From: Escherichia virus TH06
Sequence record: MT446386.1
Reading direction: 5' to 3' (one strand)
DNA: 64,000 nt
The first letter of the stretch is position 1. The number at the start of each line of letters is the position of its first letter. The notes below the pieces were generated by a model. It was given only the letters and a program-made list of their open reading frames with translations. It searched no databases and was not told the DNA's origin. Shown here piece by piece: positions 11,977 through 58,961 of this stretch. The position numbers were made by a program, and so were the translations under genes.

Positions 11977-12145
11977 TTTATCTCGCAGGTGGCTCCTGCC
12001 CTTCGGTACTTGCAAGGGATTCTGTGAATTGCCCAATATACAAGCCTGCAATAACTTTATCAGCTATACAATATATACATTACTAGTGTGATATATCTAC
12101 TACCAAAGATACTTATATTATATAGTACTCTTATCGGTATAAGCG

Positions 12146-12154
12146 TAATGTATA
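12146..12154 (+). promoter_or_regulatory. TAATGTATA element, candidate phage-sigma promoter
   Basis: Exact 9-mer about 60 nt upstream of ATG 12214. Confidence 0.4.
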
Positions 12155-12213
12155 CTATACATAACCGCTCAAAGAGAGCAACAATCTTTCAAATTAAATA
12201 AGGAAATTAAAAT

Positions 12214-12960
12214 ATGTCTATGATTCCAACTATCGCAACCGCTTCCCGTAAATCCAACTACGATGTAATCCCTGATGGTGAGTACGAAGCACGTATCGTT
12301 CGTGTAGTAGGTTTGGGTGTTCACAATCGTGACCCTTGGATTGACCCGAAGACCAAAGCAGTGACTCCTAAGAATCCGGCTTTCCGTATGGATTTAGCTT
12401 TCGAGCTGATTGGTGTTGATGCTACTGGTAAAGATTCCGATGGTAAGGCATTAGAACCACGTCCAGCTTGCCAGTTCAAGAGCTATGATGTAAACCCACG
12501 AGCTAAGAACTCTGGTATTCTTGATCTTTGCAAGATGATTGACCCAAGTATTCAAGCACTGAAAGGTGATCTATCTTGGTTCAAGGATGTTCTGTTAGGT
12601 CAGCCTGTTAACATTCTGGTTAACTCTTACACTAACAAAGCTGGTGAAGTTAAAAACTCCATCAAGACCATTTCTCCAATCCCAACCAAATATCGTGCAG
12701 CAGTTGGTGAAGCTCGTAGTCCTCTGGTATTCTTCGAACCGTATGCTGAAACCGATGAGAACGTAGCATCCTATCAACTGATGTTCCCGTTCCAGCGCAA
12801 CCTGCTTACTCAAGCTAATGACGCTAAGAACATGCCTCTGGCTGGTCGTGAAATTACTCGTGCTTCTGAAACAGAACAGAAAGAAGCTACTCCTTCAATC
12901 CCTACGATTGATAAAGAGCCTGCTTCTACTTACGAAGACGACAACGATAGCCCATTCTAA
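12214..12960 (+). CDS. putative single-stranded DNA-binding protein
   Basis: Acidic C-terminal tail ending DDNDSPF resembles SSB C-termini; own element upstream and terminator downstream. Confidence 0.4.
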   Translation: MSMIPTIATASRKSNYDVIPDGEYEARIVRVVGLGVHNRDPWIDPKTKAVTPKNPAFRMDLAFELIGVDATGKDSDGKALEPRPACQFKSYDVNPRAKNSGILDLCKMIDPSIQALKGDLSWFKDVLLGQPVNILVNSYTNKAGEVKNSIKTISPIPTKYRAAVGEARSPLVFFEPYAETDENVASYQLMFPFQRNLLTQANDAKNMPLAGREITRASETEQKEATPSIPTIDKEPASTYEDDNDSPF

Positions 12961-12981
12961 TAACTCTCCTTGTTATAGCTT

Positions 12982-13005
12982 AGCCACCTCCGGGTGGCTT
13001 TTTTC
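12982..13005 (+). terminator. rho-independent terminator
   Basis: AGCCACC-TCCG-GGTGGCT followed by TTTTTT. Confidence 0.65.
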
Positions 13006-13017
13006 GTTGGAGACAAC

Positions 13018-13368
13018 ATGCAAAACACATTAAGTGATAACTTAGGGTTTATCGTTTTCTCAGCTCTTGTATTCTTTGGTGGTATGAAGTTTAACGAATA
13101 TCAAACAGACAGCAGTAATCTGGACAAAGAGAAGCACCAGCAAGAGTTAGAGATTGAAAGAAGTAGAGCAGCTGATGAAGTTGCTCAGAGAGTTCTTACC
13201 GGTTTATCTAACTGGAAGAAGAACACGGAAACCGTTTATAAAGAGATGCATTATGAGAAAACTAAACCAGTTTTTTATAATGTCTGCGCTAGTGATGAGT
13301 ATGTCAGCTTGTTCAACGAGCGACAACAGCAGGCAATCAATGCCCTTACCAACAAACCTAAAAGCTGA
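13018..13368 (+). CDS. membrane-anchored coiled-coil protein, i-spanin (Rz)-like architecture
   Basis: Start at ATG 13018 after GGAGA; N-terminal TM LGFIVFSALVFFGGM then charged helical region with late Cys. Confidence 0.4.
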   Translation: MQNTLSDNLGFIVFSALVFFGGMKFNEYQTDSSNLDKEKHQQELEIERSRAADEVAQRVLTGLSNWKKNTETVYKEMHYEKTKPVFYNVCASDEYVSLFNERQQQAINALTNKPKS

Positions 13369-13512
13369 ATGTAGGGTTGACCTACCTCTTTTAGAAAGTG
13401 CTCAAGGAAAAGCACTAGCCACTACGTTGGAGTGGTATCAGGACCAGTACACAGAATGTGCTGCTAATCACAATGGATTGTTAGAAGCTCTGAAAGAGCG
13501 TGGAATAGAATA

Positions 13513-13513
<1 letters not shown>
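13253..13513 (+). CDS. putative lipoprotein in +1 frame overlapping the 3' part of the previous gene, o-spanin (Rz1)-like
   Basis: MRKLNQFFIMSALVMSMSAC lipobox-like signal, Pro-containing mature part with Cys; overlapped arrangement. Confidence 0.3.
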
Positions 13514-15005
<1,492 letters not shown>

Positions 15006-16717: not shown

Positions 16718-16897
16718 ATGGGTAAATTTGATTATCGTTCATATGATGAAAACTACTCCAACCGTGAATCTCGTAAAGACCAAAAGATTAAACATCAACT
16801 GTTTGATCAGAGAACTGGTCGTATTCCTCGTGAGGGTAAGGTGAGCCATCGTGTAAACAAACGAGTTTGGGAAGAAGCTGATTATGGCGAAGTCTGA
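16718..16897 (+). CDS. small hypothetical protein (59 aa)
   Basis: ATG 16718 after AAGGA; fills gap before next gene. Confidence 0.35.
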   Translation: MGKFDYRSYDENYSNRESRKDQKIKHQLFDQRTGRIPREGKVSHRVNKRVWEEADYGEV

Positions 16898-17285
16898 GAA
16901 GACTCGCTGTAGTGGAATGTGGACTGAAGCTCGTTACAACTCTTTCATCAAGTCAGGGATTCGTTCTCTGACTAGAAAGTGGAAGCCCATGTTCGATGCA
17001 CTAGCAGACGCCAAGACAGAGCAGAAGATTAATCCAAAGACAGGTAGACTGGCAATGCACTTTAAGTGTGCCATGTGTGGTTCTGACCACCCTGTAAAGG
17101 ATATGGCTATTGACCACATAGAACCTATAGTTCCTCTTGACCACGAAGCAACTTGGGATGAGATCATCTCTCGTGCTCTGTGTGAGAAAGAAGGTTTTCA
17201 GGTTCTGTGTAAAGACCCTTGTCATAAGATTAAAACAAAAGAAGAGAATGATGCAAGAAAACAATTCAAAAAAGGAAATGAGTGA
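16884..17285 (+). CDS. HNH nuclease
   Basis: CAMCG...DMAIDHIEPI...CKDPCHKIK fits the HNH zinc-finger nuclease motif. Confidence 0.6.
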   Translation: MAKSEKTRCSGMWTEARYNSFIKSGIRSLTRKWKPMFDALADAKTEQKINPKTGRLAMHFKCAMCGSDHPVKDMAIDHIEPIVPLDHEATWDEIISRALCEKEGFQVLCKDPCHKIKTKEENDARKQFKKGNE

Positions 17286-17505
17286 TGATCAAAAATCTAC
17301 GCAACAAGTGCTTCGCTTTCGCTATCGCAATTGGAGAGGCGAGGTTTCTGACCGGTCCGTTATTCCACTCCGAACCTCCGTTGCTAGCTCCCGTTTTCAT
17401 AACGGTGGCAAACCTTGTTGGATTATGACAGCAATAGATGTAGAGAAAGATGAGATTCGAGAATTCAAACTCTCTGACATTATTCAGTATTATGATTTAA
17501 TCTAG
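17278..17505 (+). CDS. hypothetical protein (75 aa)
   Basis: Internal ATG 17278 of track ORF 17137, overlapping upstream stop. Confidence 0.4.
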   Translation: MSDDQKSTQQVLRFRYRNWRGEVSDRSVIPLRTSVASSRFHNGGKPCWIMTAIDVEKDEIREFKLSDIIQYYDLI

Positions 17506-28915: not shown

Positions 28916-31900
28916 TTATCTCCGCCCGCCAACAGCAAACTCTATCGTTAAACCATTGATAGCAGCATTACTGTTAACATCATTATCTATAACATTATAG
29001 AAAAGGTATGGATGGTTCAGCCTCACAGAGACATGCCTGTCAACACCAATTGTATAAGTCTTCGATGTGTGTGGGTGTCCGTATTCATTTGAGAATTGAC
29101 TACCACCAGCTTCAAATATGTAAGTACCTGAACCGGTTGTCTGAGGCCGGAACCTGTTAATATGCTTCTGATTCCACTCATTAGTCACATTATCAAAATC
29201 TATACCAGTCCTCTCCAACCTCATTTCCAGAGGCTTCTCTATAACAACATCATTTAGCCTGTCATAGAAATAATCAAGAGCACCTACATCCACTTGATAG
29301 AATCCCTTCAAGAATGAACCTACTATCGTAACCCTCTGTCTAAAGTTTGTTGCATCCTTTCTCCAAACGAGTTCTTTAATAGATGGGTCATCCCAAGTGA
29401 TTTCTTGGAAGTCAGACCAGATTGGACCTCTTTCTAAAACAGGAGGATCAACCAGACCAATACACTGAGCATATGGTATAGTACGGAAAGACCAAGTATC
29501 AAACTCGTAGTTCCATACAGCAGCTTTAGTACAAGCGAAGCTTTCTTTTGGCTCCCCCGGTCCTACATAGAGAACCCAAACTTCTTTCTTATCCTGATGC
29601 AAGTGCACTCGAGTTGCTAGAGGGTTAACCAGACACACCTCGTTAATCAGCATATTCTTGACACGGTTAGATGCAATTGACTTCTTGGTTGCACCATTAT
29701 GCAAGATTACATCATTCTGAGTAACTACGAAATGACTACCTTCTACTTCAACCACGCACTCAGGAGCAAGGATACCAGAGTCGTTAAAGAGCTTCTTGAA
29801 CATTAGAGGTTGGTACGTGTTATTAGTCGGAGAACCAATATACGTTTCAAACTCTGTATAAACGAACAAGTAATCTTTAAGAGGTAGGATATCAATCAAG
29901 CTACCATTAGAATCTGCTAGATCAATATAACCAGCATACCCATTCTCTAGAGCCTGAGTCTGACCTACGATGTTAGAAGCTAAGTCCGAAGACACAACTC
30001 GATCATAGGCAAAGTCATCCCACAGTGTAGGAGCCTTGTTCTCATTGGCAAAGTTAGACCAACGAAGACGAAGCGGATAGTTAGTGGTAACACCAGAAGC
30101 ATTAGCTTCTCTCATATTCAGAGCAAAAAGACGGTTGTTAAAAGATCTCACTCTCTCACATTTCCAGTTAAACTTCTTGACTGAAGGGTTTCCATCATTA
30201 TCCACAACTGTTTGCTCACCCCATCCCGGAAGATCTACAAAGTATTCTGATTCGAATTCTTTTACCTGAGGAGTTTCATAGTGAGTTGTAGCAACTGCAC
30301 AGTTAGAGATAACAGCATGATACCAAGGATAGTCATCAAAAGCATCGTAATCTTTTTGAGTCATCTGACTAACAGTACAAGTTACGTTAATCTCTCCTTT
30401 ACGAAGAGCAACCAGTTTGATAGATTTACCAGTAACTGAGGTTGTAGAAACATAACCAGTCTTATCAACAGACCACTGATAGGAGTACTCACCTTCCGGA
30501 GAAGCTGTGGCTGTAACAACAATCTCTTCACCAACATCAAGAGAAGCGCTGACAATATCTAAGGTGACAGATGACAAAGGAGTTGCGAGTAAAGAAGCTC
30601 TTGCAAAACCTTCAATGTCATTCACGTTAGAGTAGTCGTAGAAGTTGTTACCTTCATACATCCCTGACGTATCAATACCGGATGTAGGCTCAGCAAAATA
30701 AACCGTCTCTTCACTTTCAGGAGGAGTTACTACTTCTTCCTCTTGAGTTTCTACTGACTCTGACACAGGAGCGGCAAATGCCATAGCACTTGTTCTCATT
30801 GTCCTTCCAGCTAAATCCACACGTACAATACAGACAGCAACTCTGTTACCTTCTTCAGTGGTAGCTGTAATCTCAGTAAAACCAGCAAGTAGAGCGTTGA
30901 TCGTCCCTTGTGTACTAGTCCCTGATACTGTTGCAATATTTGGATTAGAAGAGGTCCAAGTAATATTTTGATTAGGGGCGTTAGCAGGAGAAAGGGTAGC
31001 AGTTAAGATGTACTGAGAACCTCTACTCACAGTAACATCTGACTGGCTTAAAGAGATACTATCAATCTGAGGGATAGAAACAATCTCACAAGAAGCAGTC
31101 TTAGTCCCGTTATCAGCAGTGATTGTTACATTACCTTCTCCATTCGCTGTAATGACAGCAGTTAAAGAGTTGGCGTTAGGGGTTACGGATACAATAGAAG
31201 CGTTACTGCTGGACCAAGTTACAGGAGTCTTGCCAGTAACAGCCGTGAGAGTAGTAGTCCCTCCCTTACGAATTGTAACAGTATCTTGACTCAAGAAGAT
31301 GCCTGAATCACCATCTATGATATTAACAGCAATCTGAGCCACTACGGATTCATTGGCAGTAGAGATAGTTACTACAAGATTACCCTCTTTCTCAAAAGAT
31401 GTTAGAGTAGCAAGTTTAGAGTCACTAGGGTCTACTGTAATACTTCCATAAGATGAGTTACTAACCTCCCAAACAAGATCAGTATTGTTGGCATCAGCAG
31501 GAAGAAGAGAAACCTCTAGATTCTTGGTCTGATTGAAGTTCATTGAGATGGTTGATTCTTTAGGAACAATCTGAGAAACAACCGGATAAATCTTAATTGA
31601 GGCAGAAGCCTTTTTAGTGACTGTAGCAACCTTACGGCTAATATCAGTCAAGCTTTCATCTGTCAGTTTATATAACTTCTTATCCGTACCTACAACAAGA
31701 AAGCTATTACCTGCGCTATAATAATCGAAAGGCATAGAAATGAAAGACAGAGGGGTTAAATCCTTATCTTCATCTACATAAGAAAGAGGGGCATTGCCCC
31801 CCGTCTTAAATACTCTCTGCTCAACAAACCGAGCATTTATAGCATTAGTGAAAGCATTAGGAGCTAAGTCTGTCGGAGCCTGATCAGCGATAACGCCTAC

Positions 31901-31933
31901 AGCACCTAATGACTTTATTGGATACAGCGCCAT
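28916..31933 (-). CDS. large tail/virion protein with Ig-like (BIG2-type) repeats (1005 aa)
   Basis: Repeated T/S/V-rich Ig-like segments in N-terminal third. Confidence 0.45.
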   Translation of the reverse strand: MALYPIKSLGAVGVIADQAPTDLAPNAFTNAINARFVEQRVFKTGGNAPLSYVDEDKDLTPLSFISMPFDYYSAGNSFLVVGTDKKLYKLTDESLTDISRKVATVTKKASASIKIYPVVSQIVPKESTISMNFNQTKNLEVSLLPADANNTDLVWEVSNSSYGSITVDPSDSKLATLTSFEKEGNLVVTISTANESVVAQIAVNIIDGDSGIFLSQDTVTIRKGGTTTLTAVTGKTPVTWSSSNASIVSVTPNANSLTAVITANGEGNVTITADNGTKTASCEIVSIPQIDSISLSQSDVTVSRGSQYILTATLSPANAPNQNITWTSSNPNIATVSGTSTQGTINALLAGFTEITATTEEGNRVAVCIVRVDLAGRTMRTSAMAFAAPVSESVETQEEEVVTPPESEETVYFAEPTSGIDTSGMYEGNNFYDYSNVNDIEGFARASLLATPLSSVTLDIVSASLDVGEEIVVTATASPEGEYSYQWSVDKTGYVSTTSVTGKSIKLVALRKGEINVTCTVSQMTQKDYDAFDDYPWYHAVISNCAVATTHYETPQVKEFESEYFVDLPGWGEQTVVDNDGNPSVKKFNWKCERVRSFNNRLFALNMREANASGVTTNYPLRLRWSNFANENKAPTLWDDFAYDRVVSSDLASNIVGQTQALENGYAGYIDLADSNGSLIDILPLKDYLFVYTEFETYIGSPTNNTYQPLMFKKLFNDSGILAPECVVEVEGSHFVVTQNDVILHNGATKKSIASNRVKNMLINEVCLVNPLATRVHLHQDKKEVWVLYVGPGEPKESFACTKAAVWNYEFDTWSFRTIPYAQCIGLVDPPVLERGPIWSDFQEITWDDPSIKELVWRKDATNFRQRVTIVGSFLKGFYQVDVGALDYFYDRLNDVVIEKPLEMRLERTGIDFDNVTNEWNQKHINRFRPQTTGSGTYIFEAGGSQFSNEYGHPHTSKTYTIGVDRHVSVRLNHPYLFYNVIDNDVNSNAAINGLTIEFAVGGRR

Positions 31934-31942
31934 AATTCCTCC

Positions 31943-32746
31943 TTAGCTAATACGTCTCCAAATGTGAGCTGCTCTGAATGGTGGCAAAGTGTTAATAGGT
32001 TGACGAGAGATATCATCACGACCAAGACTTACACTACCAGAGATTGTATGAGTATGCGTGTCGTTATCAGTTCTCTGACTGTAACCACCACCCGGACTAT
32101 ACCAGTTTGGTGAGCTGTTATGACCACTAGCATCTCCACGACCAAATACCATATTGTGACTGTGGGTGTTACTGGATAAGGAGAAGCTGGAGCCATTAAC
32201 TGTCATCAAAGGTACGTTCTCTGTTCGAATGGTATTGAAGACACGACCACCAGTACCACCTGCTTGGAACTCAACTCTCTGAGCATTAGGGACAGAGCCA
32301 TCAGGGTTTACTACACCAGTACCCATAATGACACCAGTCACTTTAGCCCAAGAACCAAACCCTAAGGAGATAGAATCACCGGGGTTAATATCTTCTTCAG
32401 TGATGTAGTAAGAGCCAATTCGATAGAGCTTATTCTCCATCCAGTTCTTCATGAACGCTTCCATCTGACCTTTAGTGACAACGTCCTTGTCACCAGTTCC
32501 CGGAGTAACGTTCTTGATCATAAGACCACCAACATCCATTGCATCACCAGTAAACTTGAGCTTCTCTGACATAATCTTAAAGGTGTCAGAATCAATATCA
32601 ACTGGCTCTGTGACATTGGGGAATGTGTTCTGTAGTGTTTGTTTAATGAGGCGGATTTGAGCCGCCCCTTCGTAGATGTAATCCCTGTCTCTAGGATAGA
32701 GTGGGTTTAAATCGGTAATAACTACCGCATTAGTTTCGATAGCCAA
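31943..32746 (-). CDS. tail-associated structural protein (267 aa)
   Basis: Track ORF in tail region. Confidence 0.4.
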   Translation of the reverse strand: MAIETNAVVITDLNPLYPRDRDYIYEGAAQIRLIKQTLQNTFPNVTEPVDIDSDTFKIMSEKLKFTGDAMDVGGLMIKNVTPGTGDKDVVTKGQMEAFMKNWMENKLYRIGSYYITEEDINPGDSISLGFGSWAKVTGVIMGTGVVNPDGSVPNAQRVEFQAGGTGGRVFNTIRTENVPLMTVNGSSFSLSSNTHSHNMVFGRGDASGHNSSPNWYSPGGGYSQRTDNDTHTHTISGSVSLGRDDISRQPINTLPPFRAAHIWRRIS

Positions 32747-32758
32747 AAGGCACCTCCA

Positions 32759-33250
32759 TTAATATTTACCTTCGGTGTAAAGATTAGCTTCTGCAACTCT
32801 TCTATTATGAAGACCCTGACTTCTCTGCTTCTCTCCCTTGACCGTTATTTTATCCCAACGAAGAAATTCGGAATAAACATCCCCCTTAACATCTCCATTG
32901 ATTACTTTCCTTAACTTAGATGTGCTCAAAGCACCACTGCCAACGTTGAAGTTGAAAGAAGTGAGTGCATCAAACTCATGAACTAGTAAAGGAACCTTTA
33001 TGTTCTTCTGAGTAGCACGAACAGAGTCTTGTGTGTCTCTATCTAGCAGAGCTAGACAATCCTCTATAGAATACGTTAATCCTTGTCTAACCGGATAACC
33101 ATTCATATCGCGCGTAGCCCCTACACATATAGTCCAGATACCTGCGGAATCTTTATAAGCCTTGGTTCTCATACCCTCATGCTTCATGATGAATTCCATT
33201 CCAGCTGGGCTTAAGTTTAGTTGTACAGGTGGCAATGCGGCGTTATCCAT
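32759..33250 (-). CDS. endolysin, phage lysozyme (GH24-like)
   Basis: HEGMRTKAYKDSAGIWTICVG and FNFNVGSGALSTS resemble the T4/lambda-type lysozyme signature. Confidence 0.7.
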   Translation of the reverse strand: MDNAALPPVQLNLSPAGMEFIMKHEGMRTKAYKDSAGIWTICVGATRDMNGYPVRQGLTYSIEDCLALLDRDTQDSVRATQKNIKVPLLVHEFDALTSFNFNVGSGALSTSKLRKVINGDVKGDVYSEFLRWDKITVKGEKQRSQGLHNRRVAEANLYTEGKY

Positions 33251-33279
33251 TTCTAACCTCCTTTTGTGGTCCCTTTAAA

Positions 33280-33498
33280 TTAAGGTAGTATCTTTCTCAG
33301 AGCGTTAGATTCAGCATCAGGACAAATAACAACTAGATTATTTTGAATGGTTCGCTGCTTACATTGAGAACTAAGTTTCTCTACTGGAGCAGGTGCTGTA
33401 ACTAATGGATGAACTGCGCTTACAGGGATTGCAGTAGATACCACGACTCCTGCACCTAAACAAACTAAACCATATACAGCTTGTTTCATCATTTTCAT
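33280..33498 (-). CDS. small secreted protein (72 aa) adjacent to endolysin
   Basis: N-terminal signal peptide-like MKMMKQAVYGLVCLGAGVVVSTAIPVSA, Pro-rich mature part with 2 Cys. Confidence 0.4.
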   Translation of the reverse strand: MKMMKQAVYGLVCLGAGVVVSTAIPVSAVHPLVTAPAPVEKLSSQCKQRTIQNNLVVICPDAESNALRKILP

Positions 33499-33590
33499 TT
33501 GAGTGTCTCCTATAAATTAACCTCTTGGGATATATTAGTTTCATTACTTACTAAGGGTACTTACTACTAAAGCCCCCGAAGGGGCTTATC

Positions 33591-35759
33591 TTACTTCTCT
33601 GCTAACTTAGCTTCTAGAACTTCAATACGTTTCAACAGGTCTTGAACAACTTGCATGGTGTCGAGGAGCATTGGAGCTGAGTCTAGCTCTTTCTGTTCTT
33701 GTTCTACACCGTCGTTGTCATGGAACTTACGAGTCTTAACATAAAGAGGTTCTACCTTTTCTGCTTGCTGTGCGATAATACCACGACGAGTTCTTCCTTG
33801 TTCGTCATTGTTGTACACGAATGATTTGAAGTCCAAACCTTTAATCGCACGAATTGCTTCATCAGGCGAGAGATCTTGAATGTTGTGTTTCAACCTTTCA
33901 TCTGACACAGGATTCATAGCAAGAGTATAAGTTCCGGTTGAACTTGGCTGCCAAGTGTAGTAGTAAATCTCGTTCCTGTTTGGTCGGAGAGTTAAACGAC
34001 AACCATATTTGTTGTCTTCATCTCCCGAAACATGCCAACAGGAATCAGCAAAAGATCCAGCATCATTGTGAATCATCCCTACATGGGTAGTAGTTTTGTA
34101 TCCACCTTGGGATGCTTGGGAAGCACTCAGTATAGAGTTAAAAGAGTAGTTAGCACCAACCCCTTGGTTGTCTATAGAAAACGTCCCTCTGCGACTTCCT
34201 GTTTCACTCCAAGACATCAATGTTCTAGACCGAGCAACATATCTATCAGAGTTCAGGGTTCCAGAATCGTCAAAAGCTAATTGCTTGGTAACTCCTTTGG
34301 TTTTATTATAAACATTGATAATCCCATAATAAGCTCCGTCGATATAAGCATCAGTTTGGAGCGTAGTAGAGGCTTCTACTTCTGAACCTATTTTATATTC
34401 AGAAACAACTGAACCGCTAGTTACCCTAGTTCCACCAGCAGGACGGTTTGCATCACTGTTAATAACTGACCAAGAGGTGTTAGCAGCAGTAAAACCACCA
34501 TGCGCACGAATAGTCCAAACACCTACAAAGTTACGGGTCAGAATCTCCTCAGTGGAGCGACCATAAATAGGACTGGAACGCGATGCGTCAAAGTTTGTGG
34601 ATATGTATTTACCTCCAGTCCCCACTGGAGCCACATCGTCTGTAGAGGTGATTGATTGAATTGCCCCGTCAGTCGCCACCTGCCCAGGAGCGGAGGCTAG
34701 TGTTACCATTGTGTGAGGGGACGCATATGTGATGTTCGGTGCAGCAGAATCAAACACTTGACCGTTTGCAGCAGAATTACCACCATCACCACGGCCATAT
34801 AAAGCTCTCAGTGACCCCTCTTGGATGCCATTTCGGTCAGGAACACGGAAAGTTGTTGTACCGTTTCCGGTAGAATACCTACCCCTCTGATAGATATTAG
34901 ACAACCAAAGAGAGTCTTCAATTGGGGATAGCAGTTGTGCATAAGCCCATAAATCTGGGTAGTCAGCACGATTCAAAAGCTGCCCATCCGACACAACCTC
35001 AAAAGCTGGGATGAAAGCTCGACTATCACGTAAGTGGAAATCACCAATACCAAAGTTAGAAATACCACTCATGGTAGGACCACCAGAACCACCACCACTA
35101 TTTCGGAGCTGTCTCAGTGTAACCGCATCATAATCTCCAACTGCATCAGGAACAGTAACGGGTTGAGTGAAGGTTACCTTCTGGGTAAGTTGTTTGATAT
35201 CAGAGTTAATCCCTGTACGAGTAACACCAATAGTCCGACCTTTGGAATCTTTGACATAAGAACCAATTGCAGCAAAAGGCAAATCCTCAATCTCTGGACG
35301 ATACCGTTTAGAATAGACCGGATATTTAGTTTCTACTCCAGAGTCGTTCTGGTCTACTACTTGAAGACGACCAGCAGAATGAATCTCTACACCTTGAACT
35401 GAAGAGGCATAGCTACCAATCTTGATTGAGTTATCGGGAGTAACCTTCATCATATCCACAGACTCTACACCATTAGCACCAGTAGATCGGAAAGGTGTAT
35501 CATTCACAACCCAAGGGTCTGCTCTGAATAAAGCACCAGACATAAGAGGTTGAATTGAATCTAACACGTAGTCCTTAGATGCACCTTCTGTTTTAGTTTG
35601 GTATGTAGCAGCTGCATCGGTTTTCTGTAAGTACTTATCAGTCAGATTCACAGCCCCTGCCTGACCATCTACTGTAGAAACACCAACAACTGCCGCATCT
35701 CTGGTCACAACTACGTGGGGCATCATTATGCCAGATTTGGGCATTAATTCTCTAGACAT
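33591..35759 (-). CDS. tail fiber/spike protein with C-terminal intramolecular chaperone (peptidase S74-like) domain
   Basis: C-terminal SDERLKHNIQDL...GIIAQQAEKVEP motif typical of autoproteolytic chaperone domains. Confidence 0.65.
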   Translation of the reverse strand: MSRELMPKSGIMMPHVVVTRDAAVVGVSTVDGQAGAVNLTDKYLQKTDAAATYQTKTEGASKDYVLDSIQPLMSGALFRADPWVVNDTPFRSTGANGVESVDMMKVTPDNSIKIGSYASSVQGVEIHSAGRLQVVDQNDSGVETKYPVYSKRYRPEIEDLPFAAIGSYVKDSKGRTIGVTRTGINSDIKQLTQKVTFTQPVTVPDAVGDYDAVTLRQLRNSGGGSGGPTMSGISNFGIGDFHLRDSRAFIPAFEVVSDGQLLNRADYPDLWAYAQLLSPIEDSLWLSNIYQRGRYSTGNGTTTFRVPDRNGIQEGSLRALYGRGDGGNSAANGQVFDSAAPNITYASPHTMVTLASAPGQVATDGAIQSITSTDDVAPVGTGGKYISTNFDASRSSPIYGRSTEEILTRNFVGVWTIRAHGGFTAANTSWSVINSDANRPAGGTRVTSGSVVSEYKIGSEVEASTTLQTDAYIDGAYYGIINVYNKTKGVTKQLAFDDSGTLNSDRYVARSRTLMSWSETGSRRGTFSIDNQGVGANYSFNSILSASQASQGGYKTTTHVGMIHNDAGSFADSCWHVSGDEDNKYGCRLTLRPNRNEIYYYTWQPSSTGTYTLAMNPVSDERLKHNIQDLSPDEAIRAIKGLDFKSFVYNNDEQGRTRRGIIAQQAEKVEPLYVKTRKFHDNDGVEQEQKELDSAPMLLDTMQVVQDLLKRIEVLEAKLAEK

Positions 35760-35799
35760 TTATTTCTCCTTAAAGCTCCCCGAAGGGAGCATTATTGTT

Positions 35800-38580
35800 T
35801 CATTTAGAAGGCATCTCAACACGAAGGTCAATCCATCTTCCAGAAGGGATATCAATTGGTTCACCATCCACCACACCTTCTATTACATTACTTGCAAAAG
35901 AAGGAACTCCCTCGTGAGTTCGATGGTAAGTTTTCAGAGTAATATCACCTTCTTCATCAACTTCATAATCAACCCAAAGAAGAGGTAATCCGTTAGAGTT
36001 CTGAGGAATAGAAAAACCACCGTCATTACCACCCCAAGAGGCATCTGAGTTAAACCCTAAGACTCCTGAGATTTTATAGACACCAACATCTAATCTTTCG
36101 GTTGTCACTCCTTGGGCTTGGTCATTAGCTTCAGAAGACCCGTCAGATTTTAGTTTGACTATAGGGGATGCAATTTTAACAAAACCATTAACATCTACAG
36201 TGGTGTTCAAGTCCCGTACTAAGAAATCTCTCCAGTTAGTAATCAAAGCTGGGTCATTGGTTCTTTGACGATACCGAGGAGCTTGGTTGGTAATAGTAGA
36301 GAAACCAATCTGAGACCAGTTACCACCGCGACCTCCTTCTGATATAGTCATAATCTCTGCATAAGAATAAGGCGCTCCATTACCTCCGGGGAAAGGGGAA
36401 ACGTCTTGACTATAGAACCCAATACCTGTTGGTAAATCTTCACTGCCATAAAAAGTTGATTGACCATACTGACAATGCATGGCTCCTAATTTTTCAGAAC
36501 CTTCAGCTGGTGTTTTCCCTCCAGTACCACCACTTATTACTGGCAAGGCTATTCTAGAAGAATCAGAGTTATTGAAATACCCCCAATCTGCATCTGTAAT
36601 AAAGAAGGTATGTTCTCCAGAACCATCCAGCAGTTTTGTGTCTGTTGAACTTTGAACAAGCTTATCCACCTTCAGATTGACACGAGCAGCAGCCTCAGAG
36701 GTCGCTCCTGTACCACCTTGTCCTACCCCTAAAGCTCTCCATGCTGAGTCAGCAGAACTATAAGCCCCCCAAGAGGTGTCTGAAATTGTTAAATATGAAG
36801 ATTTACTAGGAGCCATAACTATGGTTTCATTGCTAGGCTGTAAAAATCTCTCCAAATTTAAGCTAATTCGAGCATCGTTTAATGTGGTTGCTCCCGTACC
36901 ACCTGATTCTATAGCAAAAGGTACAACTTCTTCCGTCCCTGCATTAATAGAAGCAACAAGTCCCGAGTTATCCACTTTGAAAGCATACTCCCCGTTAGGA
37001 GATCTATAACTGTTATAAGATTGAGGATCAGCCTGATCATTACATAAAACCCCCTGGACCAACGCCGACCTACGAAGCGAGCCAATATCGGTAACACCTG
37101 TACCACCCTGAGCAACAGAAAGAGGGGTAGTCAATCCACTAAGGGATGTGATATCAGAGTTAGCGCCTGAAGATGCTGCCCCAACATTAGCAGCTGTGAG
37201 GACTACATTACCATTAGCGTCATCAGGGGCTTTTCCGTTTACGGTTACAATGTAAGGAATCTGAGATTGAACACGACCTTTGTAATTAGCATCTTTATCT
37301 GAATCAGGAGACCTGATAGCCTCACCACCAGTCCAGTCAGGAAGTCGGATACTTATAAAGTTAGTAGAATCTGCATCAGTTATACCATCAGCCAGCTTAC
37401 CCCAAGAGAAATATTGACGAGCACCAGATTGCCATTCAGTTTCAGAAACAACAGGAAGTTGTCCACTGACAAGAGATGGACCTAAGTCTGAAGCAGATTC
37501 TTTAGATACTAGACGACCGTCAGCTGGAAGAACACCCGGATAGGAGATATTCTTCGTTGGGTCATAAGGGAACATCACCATCTCACCAAGATACAGAGAA
37601 GGGTTTCCTGTTGGAATAGTAATGTCAATGTTACCACTGGAATCTGGAGAACGGGAGTTAACAGTAAGGATCCTACCTTCAGTTTTAACAGGAGTTAATG
37701 TTTTGTTAGCAGCAACAGTGTAGAACTCATACTTAGTAGCTTCCCAGACTAAGACTTTCTCACCAACTTGACGATACTGAGCGTCAGCATCAGCTTCTGC
37801 TTTTGATTGGTATGTCTTGGTAGTTTTGTCAAACTTGTCGTTAATCTCTTGACGGCTATACTGAGCAACGTTCAGAACATTCCCTAAACCTACCGTCTCT
37901 TTGTTGATTGTTAAGGCAACCTCTCCATCAAGAGCTGGACCACCGTTAATAGAAACAGAACGAACAGACGGGATTAAGTTGGCAATGTTCTCTAGAGTAG
38001 TCTTGTGGACAGTATTATCATCTTTGTCAACATAGAAACCCAAGTCACCTAACTCTGGAACACCGGTAGGTGCTGTATCCAAATCCTTAACAGAACCATC
38101 CTTTCCGGGATCACCTTCTGGGATACCTAGAGAGATTACACCAGTGTTCGGATTAAAAGAGCCAGTAGCCGGAGTTCCCGGAGGAAGTGTGGTTACATCA
38201 ACGGACATTCCTAACAGAACGTCAAGCTGGTTCTGGACTTCAATAAGTTTCTGATTAATTAGAGCTACAGCATTATTCGCATCTGATACCGCTGCGTTAG
38301 TTTGAGCAATCAAACTCATCAGACGAGCATCTTGATCTTTAAAGTCCTGCTTAAGATCTTCGATATCCTGCTTCATCAGAACACCTTGCTGATACAAACG
38401 TTCTACTTCAGCGATCAGGTCATCAATTGTACCAAACTTAGACTCTGCTAACAGTGCCCAATATTTGGAGTCAGCTGCATATTCTGCGGCTTGCTTATAA
38501 GCTCCAATAGAGCCTTCAGTAGCACCAAACTGCCCAACGTTATTCACTGCATCAGGTGCTTGGTTATTATAAACGATCAT
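35800..38580 (-). CDS. tail fiber protein with phage tail-fiber repeats
   Basis: Four copies of a GGTGxT...AR.NL-type repeat (QGGTGATSEAAARVNL, ESGGTGATTLNDARISL and others). Confidence 0.65.
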   Translation of the reverse strand: MIVYNNQAPDAVNNVGQFGATEGSIGAYKQAAEYAADSKYWALLAESKFGTIDDLIAEVERLYQQGVLMKQDIEDLKQDFKDQDARLMSLIAQTNAAVSDANNAVALINQKLIEVQNQLDVLLGMSVDVTTLPPGTPATGSFNPNTGVISLGIPEGDPGKDGSVKDLDTAPTGVPELGDLGFYVDKDDNTVHKTTLENIANLIPSVRSVSINGGPALDGEVALTINKETVGLGNVLNVAQYSRQEINDKFDKTTKTYQSKAEADADAQYRQVGEKVLVWEATKYEFYTVAANKTLTPVKTEGRILTVNSRSPDSSGNIDITIPTGNPSLYLGEMVMFPYDPTKNISYPGVLPADGRLVSKESASDLGPSLVSGQLPVVSETEWQSGARQYFSWGKLADGITDADSTNFISIRLPDWTGGEAIRSPDSDKDANYKGRVQSQIPYIVTVNGKAPDDANGNVVLTAANVGAASSGANSDITSLSGLTTPLSVAQGGTGVTDIGSLRRSALVQGVLCNDQADPQSYNSYRSPNGEYAFKVDNSGLVASINAGTEEVVPFAIESGGTGATTLNDARISLNLERFLQPSNETIVMAPSKSSYLTISDTSWGAYSSADSAWRALGVGQGGTGATSEAAARVNLKVDKLVQSSTDTKLLDGSGEHTFFITDADWGYFNNSDSSRIALPVISGGTGGKTPAEGSEKLGAMHCQYGQSTFYGSEDLPTGIGFYSQDVSPFPGGNGAPYSYAEIMTISEGGRGGNWSQIGFSTITNQAPRYRQRTNDPALITNWRDFLVRDLNTTVDVNGFVKIASPIVKLKSDGSSEANDQAQGVTTERLDVGVYKISGVLGFNSDASWGGNDGGFSIPQNSNGLPLLWVDYEVDEEGDITLKTYHRTHEGVPSFASNVIEGVVDGEPIDIPSGRWIDLRVEMPSK

Positions 38581-50306: not shown

Positions 50307-50570
50307 ATGGCTATCAAAGAAGTTAGATTATCTAATGGCTATTCTGTTTTTGTTGGCGATACCGCTATCACGTTTAATCTGCGTCATGGTCAGTTAACGT
50401 TGCCTGTTGTTACTTTCTGCGTTATGGATTTTAAACAGGCTAAAAATTGGCTATCTGCTATCGGCGTTGAAATTAACCGTGATGATTTTCGTTCTATATA
50501 TTTTGACGGTGGCTTGTCACTGGCTAACCTGCTCAATCATGGCCTTGTTGGAGGTGGCACTAATGGGTAA
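50307..50570 (+). CDS. hypothetical protein (87 aa)
   Basis: Track ORF. Confidence 0.45.
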   Translation: MAIKEVRLSNGYSVFVGDTAITFNLRHGQLTLPVVTFCVMDFKQAKNWLSAIGVEINRDDFRSIYFDGGLSLANLLNHGLVGGGTNG

Positions 50571-50817
50571 TGAAACAATCGCACTGATTGACACGCACAA
50601 TTACGGTGGCGTTACGCTCTCCTTTGATGAGTCAATCGACTACACTTATTTGTCCTTTCTAACTAAGGGTGAAATAAAAACTATTAGCTTTCCTGCGGTC
50701 TATTTAGTACAGGATTATCTCACTATTGGGAAGTATTTAGCCCAACGCGGGATTCTTCTGTCGCTGGAAGAAGTGGAACAGGTTAGCGTAGCATTTTTTG
50801 GCGAGGATAGCAACTAG
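50563..50817 (+). CDS. hypothetical protein (84 aa)
   Basis: Internal ATG 50563 of track ORF 50407, after GGAGGTGG, overlapping upstream stop. Confidence 0.4.
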   Translation: MGNETIALIDTHNYGGVTLSFDESIDYTYLSFLTKGEIKTISFPAVYLVQDYLTIGKYLAQRGILLSLEEVEQVSVAFFGEDSN

Positions 50818-58885: not shown

Positions 58886-58961
58886 GCGCTCTTAGCTCAA
58901 TGGATAGAGCAGTAGCCTTCTAAGCTATTGGTTACAGGTTCGAGTCCTGTAGGGCGCACCA
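58886..58961 (+). tRNA. tRNA-Arg (anticodon UCU)
   Basis: 76-nt cloverleaf: acceptor GCGCTCT/AGGGCGC, D-arm GCTC/GAGC, anticodon stem GTAGC/GCTAT with loop CTTCTAA, T-arm ACAGG-TTCGAGT-CCTGT, encoded CCA. Confidence 0.8.

What the first reader, a model, noticed from the sequence alone, without database searches (positions are those of the whole stretch)
13018..13513. Spanin-like overlapped gene pair located far from the endolysin
ORF 13018-13368 has an N-terminal TM and a periplasmic coiled-coil with a late Cys (i-spanin-like). A +1-frame ORF starting at 13253 inside it encodes a lipobox-type signal (SMSAC) and extends past its stop (overlapped o-spanin architecture). The endolysin lies about 19 kb away on the opposite strand.
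Basis: partly seen in the sequence, partly recalled or inferred. Interest (0 to 1): 0.4.

Follow-up and report, generated by a model that had tools for sequence, protein, structure and literature searches.

The report
Overlapping spanin gene pair, phiEco32-type
These are two overlapping phage genes, one for an inner-membrane protein and one for an outer-membrane lipoprotein, that together most likely break the host's outer membrane at lysis; the same pair was already catalogued for the near-identical phage phiEco32, so the finding is correct but ordinary.

Summary
The window is a phiEco32-like E. coli podophage (Kuravirus).

- **i-spanin:** ORF 13018-13368 encodes 116 aa with an N-terminal transmembrane segment and one periplasmic Cys. 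It matches PHROG 1152 "Rz-like spanin" at E=2.7e-37.
- **o-spanin:** the +1-frame ORF 13253-13513 encodes 86 aa with the signal MRKLNQFFIMSALVMSMSA|CS. The two ORFs overlap by 116 nt.
- **Selection:** past the i-spanin stop, the +1 ORF evolves at dN/dS of about 0.1 in its own frame only.
- **Conservation:** the start and the lipobox Cys are kept in every relative examined. These include Felix-O1-like phages and a Proteus phage where the pair follows a holin and an endolysin.
- **Natural experiment:** where a homing endonuclease has split the pair, a new lipoprotein signal replaces the old one.

Kongari et al. 2018 list exactly this pair for phiEco32, with the same lengths and the same 116-nt overlap. 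The 19-kb distance from the holin and endolysin genes has precedent in T4 and in phage Privateer.

Three caveats apply. A coiled coil is not established. No experiment exists for this family. Public annotation is often wrong: the o-spanin is truncated to 57 aa or missing.

Novelty: already known. Interest: low.

The parts
12146..12154 (+). [quoted passage not shown] It lies 60 nt upstream of the gene-40 homologue and probably drives the operon that leads into the spanin genes.
   Evidence: Exact match. phiEco32 gene 40 is one of six genes with an experimentally mapped gp36-dependent promoter (PMC8948821). The motif sits at the same place in all Kuravirus-like loci that include this region.
12214..12960 (+). 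Homologue of phiEco32 gene 40 (248 aa, function unknown), the gene upstream of the spanin pair.
   Evidence: PHROG 6599, E=7e-119. Annotated as phi32_40 in RefSeq.
12982..13005 (+). Intrinsic-terminator-like hairpin (7-bp stem AGCCACC/GGTGGCT, 4-nt loop, T-run) that ends 12 nt before the i-spanin start codon.
   Evidence: Terminator scan. The 60-nt region folds at -19.5 kcal/mol, z=-3.2. The stem is invariant and only the loop varies (TCCG or TTCG) in the 16 Kuravirus-like sequences checked, the window and 15 relatives.
13018..13368 (+). i-spanin gene (116 aa). It has an N-terminal transmembrane segment around residues 5-27, a helical periplasmic part, the conserved motif EKTKPVFYNVC(A)SD.YV.LFNE and Cys90.
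   Evidence: PHROG 1152 'Rz-like spanin', E=2.7e-37. It is 34% identical to the annotated i-spanin of a Felix-O1-like phage. dN/dS is 0.03-0.28.
13042..13098 (+). Coding region for the i-spanin transmembrane segment (LGFIVFSALVFFGGMKF).
   Evidence: Hydropathy. The AlphaFold2 model is helical here.
13253..13513 (+). o-spanin gene in the +1 frame (86-aa precursor; 67-aa mature lipoprotein predicted after cleavage before Cys20).
   Evidence: PHROG 2425 matched full length, E=3.5e-27, with a weak match to PHROG 456 'Rz-like spanin', E=1.3e-3. Full-length tblastn matches in 253 phage records. dN/dS about 0.1 in this frame only.
13253..13368 (+). 116-nt dual-coding overlap. It encodes the i-spanin C-terminal 38 residues plus stop in one frame, and the o-spanin signal peptide, lipobox and first mature residues in the other.
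   Evidence: Variable sites make up 22% here, against 36% and 44% in the two single-coding parts. Synonymous divergence in the i-frame is roughly halved. The overlap length is the same as listed for phiEco32.
13298..13312 (+). Lipobox region S-M-S-A-C, with the Cys codon TGT at 13310-13312, followed by Ser at +2 (no Asp, so no inner-membrane retention signal).
   Evidence: Pattern match. The Cys is kept in all 14 relatives compared, as SMSAC, SMSSC, STSSC, NLSAC, IIAGC, TMSGC, SLMAC or SLSAC.
33280..33498 (-). Gene annotated as holin in relatives (72 aa, one hydrophobic segment), in the late morphogenesis cluster.
   Evidence: PHROG 11161 'holin', E=2.3e-48. Hydropathy.
32759..33250 (-). Endolysin (lysozyme type, 163 aa) with no N-terminal hydrophobic segment by my hydropathy measure.
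   Evidence: PHROG 7 'endolysin', E=3.8e-46. Maximum 19-residue hydropathy is 0.82.

Best explanation
The two ORFs are the two-component spanin of a phiEco32-like phage, in the 'overlapped' gene arrangement.

**Inferred mechanism, taken from what has been shown for lambda Rz/Rz1 (established knowledge summarised in PMC6139136):**
1. The 116-aa product inserts in the inner membrane by its N-terminal segment, with a mostly helical periplasmic part.
2. The 86-aa product is exported, lipidated on Cys20, cleaved by signal peptidase II and sorted to the outer membrane, because the +2 residue is Ser and not Asp.
3. The C-terminal parts of the two proteins bind and form a bridge across the periplasm. 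Intermolecular disulfides through Cys90 (i-spanin) and Cys40/Cys69 (o-spanin) probably stabilise it.
4. The bridge is held inactive by the peptidoglycan meshwork.
5. Once the holin (33280-33498) and endolysin (32759-33250) destroy the wall, the complexes disrupt the outer membrane, probably by fusing it to the inner membrane.

**Expression.** The genes sit in the middle-gene cluster, downstream of the gp36-dependent promoter of gene 40 and of a conserved terminator hairpin. They are probably made earlier than the late holin and endolysin, and at a modest read-through level. This is harmless because spanins cannot act until the wall is gone.

**Shown here:** gene anatomy, selection on both frames, conservation of the signals, family membership, and lysis-cassette context in relatives.

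**Inferred:** lipidation, sorting, complex formation, membrane disruption, and timing and level of expression.
For: 1. **i-spanin family.** ORF 13018-13368 matches PHROG 1152 'Rz-like spanin' at E=2.7e-37 over its full length.
2. **o-spanin family.** The 86-aa ORF matches PHROG 2425 from profile position 3 of 86, so that family includes the signal peptide. It also weakly matches PHROG 456 'Rz-like spanin'.
3. **Selection on the +1 frame.** In 13369-13513 the o-frame gives dN of about 0.1-0.2 with dS above 1.6 or saturated, so dN/dS is about 0.1. The other two frames give 0.7-1.0 and far above 1. Third codon positions of the o-frame carry 39 of 64 variable sites.
4. **Conserved start and lipobox.** The start M[KR][KR]L, the hydrophobic stretch and the lipobox Cys are kept in 14 of 14 relatives. 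These reach down to 28-40% identity: a Felix-O1-like phage, Proteus phage RS10pmA and an IMG/VR contig. tblastn finds full-length matches in 253 phage records, all 98 Kuravirus-like ones among them.
5. **Natural experiment.** In at least seven phages an HNH-AP2 homing endonuclease gene lies between the two genes (KM01, EK010, E20-1, Bas86, Bas87, SU7, PAS59). In KM01 and PAS59, which I read, the old signal peptide is lost. A different one, encoded inside the endonuclease gene's 3' end, restores a positively charged N-terminus, a hydrophobic stretch and LSAC or LMAC before the same mature protein. SU7's RefSeq record annotates that 88-aa ORF as O-spanin.
6. **Lysis-cassette context.** In Proteus phage RS10pmA the homologous pair directly follows a holin (PHROG 198) and an endolysin (PHROG 465). 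In Felix-O1-like phages the homologues are annotated i-spanin and o-spanin.
7. **Prior catalogue entry.** PMC6139136 lists phiEco32 as overlapped, 116-aa i-spanin, 86-aa o-spanin, 116-nt overlap. It places the i-spanin in the JH2 family with Felix O1, and the o-spanin in the NJ01/ECBP2/KBNP1711/PhiEco32 group. A 2026 Kuravirus paper reports the same features (PMC13417854).
8. **Uniqueness.** This is the only credible lipoprotein ORF in the window.
Against: - No member of this sequence family has been tested in a lysis assay, as far as the papers I could read show.
- Neither SU10 gp34 nor gp35 was among the 34 proteins detected by mass spectrometry (PMC4281155). There is therefore no direct evidence of translation from ATG 13253.
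- No Pfam family matched either protein above threshold. Membership of the spanin class rests on PHROG annotation and on topology signals.
- The lipobox has Met at -3, which is less common than Leu, Val or Ile.
- The o-spanin is not proline-rich, unlike lambda Rz1: 3 Pro in 67 mature residues.
- The genes lie in a middle-gene cluster behind a terminator, not in a late lysis cassette.
- The AlphaFold2 models are of low confidence (pLDDT 62.7 and 51.3).
Confidence: 0.9

Rival explanations
1. The +1 ORF is translated only from the internal ATG at 13340, as annotated in RefSeq phiEco32 (gp38, 57 aa) and in EK5. It would then be a small soluble protein with no lipid anchor, so the pair would not be a spanin.
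For: - Several public records annotate exactly this 57-aa CDS.
- Most clusters in the large protein database are 57 aa long.
Against: - The 57-aa calls are what gene finders produce when they penalise long overlaps.
- The 29 codons upstream keep an ATG, basic residues, a hydrophobic stretch and the Cys in relatives as distant as 28% identity.
- When a homing endonuclease removes that upstream part, a new lipoprotein signal takes its place.
- PHROG 2425 covers the signal peptide.
Confidence: 0.04
2. The pair is an envelope-targeted system with a different job, for example superinfection exclusion by a lipoprotein plus a membrane partner, expressed in mid-infection rather than at lysis.
For: - The genes lie in the middle-gene cluster next to a macro-domain gene and the phage sigma factor. 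They are 19 kb from the holin and endolysin and on the other strand.
- No experiment ties this family to lysis.
Against: - Homologues of both partners sit in a canonical holin-endolysin-spanin cassette in Proteus phage RS10pmA.
- The i-spanin matches a family annotated as spanin at E=2.7e-37.
- The window holds no other spanin candidate, yet the phage lyses E. coli.
- Spanin genes away from the other lysis genes are documented for T4 (PMC6139136).
Confidence: 0.05
3. The +1 ORF is a chance open frame inside and after a real gene.
For: Short overlapping ORFs are common in A+T-rich phage DNA.
Against: - The codon-position pattern and dN/dS of about 0.1 are specific to this frame.
- There are 253 full-length homologues.
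- Shuffled sequence gives 0.3 lipoprotein-like ORFs per window.
Confidence: 0.01

Closest known systems
phiEco32 gp39 / extended gp38, the spanin pair listed by Kongari et al. 2018 (PMC6139136)
   Same: Same genes. The i-spanin is 99% identical and the o-spanin 98.8% identical. Lengths are the same (116 and 86 aa), as are the 116-nt overlap and the genomic position between gene 40 and the macro-domain gene.
   Different: One or two amino-acid differences. The window's best-matching public record (YW01) does not annotate the o-spanin at all.
Felix O1-like and phiEa21-4-like spanins (i-spanin family 'JH2' of PMC6139136; annotated i-spanin and o-spanin in GEC_vB_NS7)
   Same: Both partners are homologous: i-spanin 34% identity, E=3e-16; o-spanin 28% identity over residues 1-80. 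The architecture is overlapped. The FYNVC..D.YV..FNE motif and the lipobox Cys are conserved.
   Different: The host phages are myoviruses. The o-spanin keeps only one of the two periplasmic Cys. PMC6139136 placed the two o-spanins in different families.
Lambda Rz/Rz1
   Same: Same functional design: a type II inner-membrane protein plus a small outer-membrane lipoprotein read from the +1 frame of the same DNA, with periplasmic Cys in both.
   Different: - No detectable sequence similarity (no Pfam match).
- Rz1 is fully embedded in Rz, while here the second gene runs 145 nt past the first.
- Rz1 is proline-rich, while this o-spanin has 3 Pro and predicted C-terminal helices.
- Lambda's genes follow S and R in one late cassette.
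T4 PseT.3/PseT.2
   Same: [quoted passage not shown] The o-spanin has a predicted C-terminal helix.
   Different: The architecture is separated, not overlapped. No sequence similarity was found here.
T5 versus Shivani/phiR201 spanins (PMC6139136)
   Same: [quoted passage not shown] It changes only the i-spanin's extreme C-terminus and the o-spanin's signal sequence. The same happens in seven Kuravirus-like relatives.
   Different: The T5 case involves a GIY-YIG enzyme, the Kuravirus case an HNH-AP2 enzyme. The window itself carries the uninterrupted form.

Membership tests
Two-component spanin (functional class, criteria of PMC6139136) | i-spanin: small protein with a single N-terminal transmembrane segment and a periplasmic C-terminal domain | tested here: met
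   Hydrophobic stretch within residues 5-27 and none elsewhere. 30 of 116 residues are charged, mostly after residue 27.
Two-component spanin (functional class, criteria of PMC6139136) | o-spanin: N-terminal lipoprotein signal with a lipobox ending in Cys | tested here: met
   MRKLNQFFIMSALVMSMSA|C fits the PROSITE-style core pattern. The Cys is conserved in 14 of 14 relatives. LipoP and SignalP were not available.
Two-component spanin (functional class, criteria of PMC6139136) | Outer-membrane sorting: no Asp at position +2 of the mature lipoprotein (the E. coli Lol rule, established knowledge) | tested here: met
   The mature N-terminus is C-S-T-S. Relatives have CST, CSM or CSS.
Two-component spanin (functional class, criteria of PMC6139136) | The two genes are adjacent, in embedded, overlapped or separated arrangement | tested here: met
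   Overlapped, 116 nt, with the o-spanin in the +1 frame. Identical to the phiEco32 entry in Table S4.
Two-component spanin (functional class, criteria of PMC6139136) | Periplasmic cysteines available for intermolecular disulfide bonds | tested here: met
   C90 in the i-spanin is invariant in 14 homologues. C40 and C69 in the o-spanin are invariant in 7. Disulfide formation itself was not tested.
Two-component spanin (functional class, criteria of PMC6139136) | The two proteins bind through their C-terminal parts to span the periplasm | not testable with these tools
The single-chain models are of low confidence.
Two-component spanin (functional class, criteria of PMC6139136) | Required for outer-membrane disruption (spherical-cell phenotype of mutants in the presence of divalent cations) | not testable with these tools
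   I found no experiment on this family in the papers I could read. SU10 proteomics did not detect the products.
PHROG 1152 (annotated Rz-like spanin) | Full-length profile match | tested here: met
   E=2.7e-37, residues 3-116 against profile positions 6-127 of 127. The Proteus homologue also matches, E=2.2e-18.
Lambda Rz and Rz1 sequence families (Pfam) | Match to a Pfam model for Rz-type or Rz1-type lysis proteins | tested here: not met
   At E up to 1 only DUF3290 and DUF7333 appeared for the i-spanin, both below their cut-offs. Nothing appeared for the o-spanin. The pair works like Rz/Rz1 but is not a sequence member of those families.

The most novel reading that the evidence does not exclude
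**Timing reading.** In phiEco32-like phages the spanin is deliberately uncoupled from the late holin and endolysin genes. It would be made from the gp36-dependent middle promoter of gene 40, at an attenuated level set by the invariant terminator hairpin 12 nt upstream of the i-spanin start. It would also be translationally coupled to the downstream macro-domain gene. The periplasmic bridges would then be in place long before wall degradation.

**Endonuclease reading.** The dual-coding overlap, because it is so constrained, serves as a homing site for an HNH-AP2 endonuclease. The cassette carries a recoded i-spanin tail and a replacement lipoprotein signal. That would make it a second, independent example of endonuclease-driven change of spanin gene architecture.
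Probability: 0.35. Interest if true: 0.25.

Novelty: already known. Interest (0 to 1): 0.1.

Why it matters
Its main value is for curation. The closest public record (YW01) lacks the o-spanin gene. RefSeq phiEco32, SU10 and many others start it at an internal ATG, which removes the lipoprotein signal. A recent review of the group does not mention spanins at all (PMC9965538).

Correct annotation matters for phages of this group, which are being developed for therapy and food safety, and for counts of 'spanin-less' phages. It adds nothing new to the biology of lysis.

Tried and rejected
- **Pfam and NCBIfam:** nothing above threshold for either protein. A weak Mfa1 fimbrillin hit (E=0.0065) covers only the lipoprotein-signal end and is far below its cut-off.
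- **Solved structures:** no meaningful match.
- **AlphaFold2 models:** pLDDT 62.7 and 51.3. I used them only for rough helix positions and did not run a fold search on them.
- **IMG/VR scan with the i-spanin:** only 6 loci.
- **Large protein database search with the o-spanin:** only 6 clusters, mostly truncated gene calls.
- **Primary phiEco32 transcription paper (Pavlova et al. 2012):** not held. The middle-class assignment of genes 38 and 39 therefore rests on their position within the cluster as described in PMC8948821 and PMC4281155, not on per-gene data.
- **GTG at 12994 as i-spanin start:** rejected. It lies inside the terminator stem and has no ribosome-binding site.
- **Two other lipobox-like hits (50467-50817 with a TTG start; 36776-37009 inside a large minus-strand gene):** judged spurious.

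Full report
**What the window is.** Region 12000-15000 is 100% identical to Escherichia phage YW01 and 97-99% identical to phiEco32, SU10 and about 60 other Kuravirus-like podophages of E. coli. The gene order around the finding is the phiEco32 one:
- gene 40 homologue, 12214-12960
- i-spanin, 13018-13368
- o-spanin, 13253-13513
- macro-domain protein, 13513-13953
- sigma factor gp36 homologue, 13973-14620

**Check of the observation.** Both ORFs exist as described.
- The first starts at ATG 13018, with GGAG five bases upstream, and ends at TGA 13368. It encodes 116 aa with one hydrophobic segment near the N-terminus, a charged remainder and a single Cys at position 90.
- The second starts at ATG 13253 in the +1 frame, with GAG seven bases upstream, and ends at TAA 13513. 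It encodes 86 aa beginning MRKLNQFFIMSALVMSMSA|CSTSD. This fits the lipoprotein core pattern and has Ser, not Asp, after the Cys.
- The overlap is 116 nt.
- A scan of all six frames of the window for such N-termini gave three hits, against 0.3 expected from shuffles. The other two are a TTG-started fragment and an ORF inside a large gene on the other strand.
- The endolysin (32759-33250, minus strand) and the gene annotated as holin in relatives (33280-33498, minus strand) lie 19.2 kb away among tail genes.

The 'coiled coil' is the one element I could not confirm. Pepcoil predicted none for the phiEco32 protein (PMC6139136 Table S3). The heptad pattern is weak. The AlphaFold2 model has a helix at 3-76, a linker at 77-92 and a helix at 93-111, but its confidence is low.

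**Is the +1 ORF a real gene, and where does it start?** I aligned the window with nine Kuravirus-like relatives.
- The part of the +1 ORF beyond the i-spanin stop (13369-13513) has 39 of its 64 variable sites at o-frame third codon positions.
- Pairwise dN/dS there is about 0.1, with synonymous sites near or at saturation. The other two frames give 0.7-1.0 and far above 1.
- The overlap is the least variable stretch: 22% variable sites against 36% and 44%. Synonymous divergence in the i-frame is about half that of the non-overlapping part, as expected for dual coding.
- The start at 13253, not the internal ATG at 13340 used in RefSeq phiEco32, SU10 and EK5, is supported by conservation. M-[KR]-[KR]-L, a hydrophobic stretch and the Cys are kept in all 14 relatives compared. 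These include an IMG/VR contig at 55% identity, Proteus phage RS10pmA at 40% and a Felix-O1-like phage at 28%.
- tblastn finds full-length matches, from residue 1-8 onwards, in 253 phage records.
- PHROG 2425, which the protein matches at E=3.5e-27, covers the signal peptide.

**A natural experiment in relatives.** In at least seven phages, an HNH-AP2 homing endonuclease gene lies between the two spanin genes. They are KM01, EK010 and E20-1 with one allele, and Bas86, Bas87, SU7 and PAS59 with a second allele about 65% identical. I read the junctions in KM01 and PAS59.
- The upstream DNA is identical to the window up to about 13305. After that point the i-spanin tail is recoded. In KM01, SLFN is kept with different codons and followed by QRQKEAERVLKSKE.
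- This recoding destroys the old o-spanin frame, which becomes MRKLNQFFIMSALVMSMSLYLTRD...stop, with no Cys.
- Downstream of the endonuclease gene the native sequence resumes at about 13304. It still carries the now dead i-frame tail SLFNERQQQAINALTNKPKS.
- The o-spanin there has a new signal peptide, encoded in another frame of the endonuclease gene's 3' end...HIKKKLLSCTGILLAFSLSA|C in KM01 and MLTKKKQKSCLVIFLASSLMA|C in PAS59.
- Gene callers find this version at full length (P0001), and SU7's RefSeq record names it O-spanin.

Both proteins were therefore preserved through a disruptive insertion, and the lipoprotein signal was specifically replaced. This is strong evidence that the signal matters. 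PMC6139136 described the same kind of event for T5 versus Shivani/phiR201 with a GIY-YIG enzyme, so the phenomenon is not new.

**What the proteins are.**
- The i-spanin matches PHROG 1152 'Rz-like spanin' at E=2.7e-37. It is 34% identical to the annotated i-spanin of a Felix-O1-like phage.
- In Proteus phage RS10pmA the homologous pair directly follows a holin (PHROG 198) and an endolysin (PHROG 465). That is the classical lysis cassette.
- No Pfam or NCBIfam model and no solved structure matches. The pair belongs to the spanin class by topology, architecture and PHROG family, not to the lambda Rz/Rz1 sequence families.
- The conserved features are the i-spanin motif EKTKPVFYNVC(A)SD.YV.LFNE with its invariant Cys, and the o-spanin segments PLPTNLKA.C and LEWY.D.Y..CAANHNGL with two invariant Cys.

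**Expression context.**
- The consensus of gp36-dependent promoters, TAATGTATA, occurs at 12146-12154, 60 nt before the gene-40 homologue. Gene 40 is one of six phiEco32 genes with an experimentally mapped promoter of this kind, classed as middle (PMC8948821).
- A 7-bp G+C-rich hairpin with a T-run lies between gene 40 and the i-spanin, at 12982-13005. Its stem is invariant in the 16 Kuravirus-like sequences checked, although nearby synonymous sites are saturated. In SU10 a different HNH gene is inserted upstream of the hairpin, so the hairpin stays next to the i-spanin.
- The o-spanin stop overlaps the macro-domain start (TAATG at 13511-13515).
- A near-consensus sigma-70-type promoter at 13925-13954 precedes the sigma gene, as described for SU10 (PMC4281155).
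- I infer that the spanin genes are expressed with the middle genes, by read-through of the hairpin. I could not read per-gene transcription data. SU10 proteomics did not detect these products.

**Comparison with what is known.** PMC6139136 lists 'Phieco32 ovl' with i-spanin 35417-35768, o-spanin 35272-35533 and overlap 116, with products of 116 and 86 aa (67 aa mature). It places the i-spanin in the JH2 family with Felix O1, and the o-spanin in the NJ01/ECBP2/KBNP1711/PhiEco32 group. A 2026 paper on Kuravirus ZCEC16 also reports overlapping spanins with a transmembrane domain and a lipobox (PMC13417854). Spanin genes far from the other lysis genes are documented for T4 and for phage Privateer (PMC7881722).

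**Verdict.** The finding is a correct reading of a known feature. Novelty: already known. Interest: low. Its value lies in annotation, and the endonuclease-split relatives give clean evolutionary support for the lipoprotein signal.

Noticed in passing
L005 688-1725 (PAS59), L006 685-1725 (KM01), L018 536-1573 (SU7); junction corresponds to window ~13304-13306: [quoted passage not shown] The overlapped pair becomes a separated one. The i-spanin tail is recoded, dead remnants of both old reading frames remain, and the new o-spanin signal peptide is encoded inside the endonuclease gene's 3' end. The insertion point is at the lipobox codons within the dual-coding overlap. An analogous T5/Shivani case is in PMC6139136.
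   Followed up: partly
window 13340-13513; L001, L002, L003, L004: Public annotation of the o-spanin is inconsistent. RefSeq phiEco32, SU10 and EK5 start it at the internal ATG 13340 (57 aa, no lipobox). YW01, which is 100% identical here, has no CDS at all. Most clusters in the 5.8-billion-protein database are the 57-aa form.
   Followed up: yes
window 12961-13017: The terminator-like hairpin 12982-12999 is invariant in its stem across the Kuravirus-like sequences checked. In the predicted fold, UCUCC at 12965-12969 pairs with the i-spanin ribosome-binding site GGAGA at 13009-13013. This could be a translational brake or could be chance.
   Followed up: partly
window 33280-33498 (-): The 72-aa protein annotated as holin in relatives (PHROG 11161) has a single Gly/Ala/Ser-rich hydrophobic segment at residues 7-29 and two Cys. 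Authors of PMC13417854 report that predictors see only a signal peptide and no transmembrane domain, and they call the adjacent endolysin a SAR endolysin. By hydropathy the window's endolysin has no hydrophobic N-terminus (maximum 0.82). The holin assignment in this phage group therefore looks unsettled.
   Followed up: partly
window 13925-13954 (+): A near-consensus sigma-70-type promoter (TGGACA, 18 nt, TATAAT; 11 of 12 matches) lies inside the 3' end of the macro-domain gene, just upstream of the phage sigma-factor gene. This agrees with the own promoter described for SU10 CDS32.
   Followed up: partly
window 13511-13515: The o-spanin stop codon overlaps the start codon of the macro-domain gene (TAATG), which suggests translational coupling of a lysis gene to a gene of unrelated function.
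   Followed up: no
L004 1171-1584 (SU10): A different HNH endonuclease (HNH_3 + NUMOD4) is inserted between the gene-40 homologue and the terminator hairpin in SU10. This small region has therefore been hit by at least two kinds of homing endonuclease.
   Followed up: partly
window 16884-17285 (+): The window itself carries an HNH endonuclease gene (PHROG 3106, E=5.9e-40), overlapped by another ORF at 17137-17505.
   Followed up: no
window 12000-15000 versus 31900-33650: The window is a mosaic relative to the database. The spanin region is 100% identical to YW01. The holin-endolysin region is 100% identical only to TH38, whose o-spanin is 97.7% identical to the window's, and YW01 is not among the 12 best matches listed there (all at or above 95.9%).
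   Followed up: no
window 58886-58961 (+): tRNA-Arg (anticodon TCT), as reported for other phages of the group.
   Followed up: no
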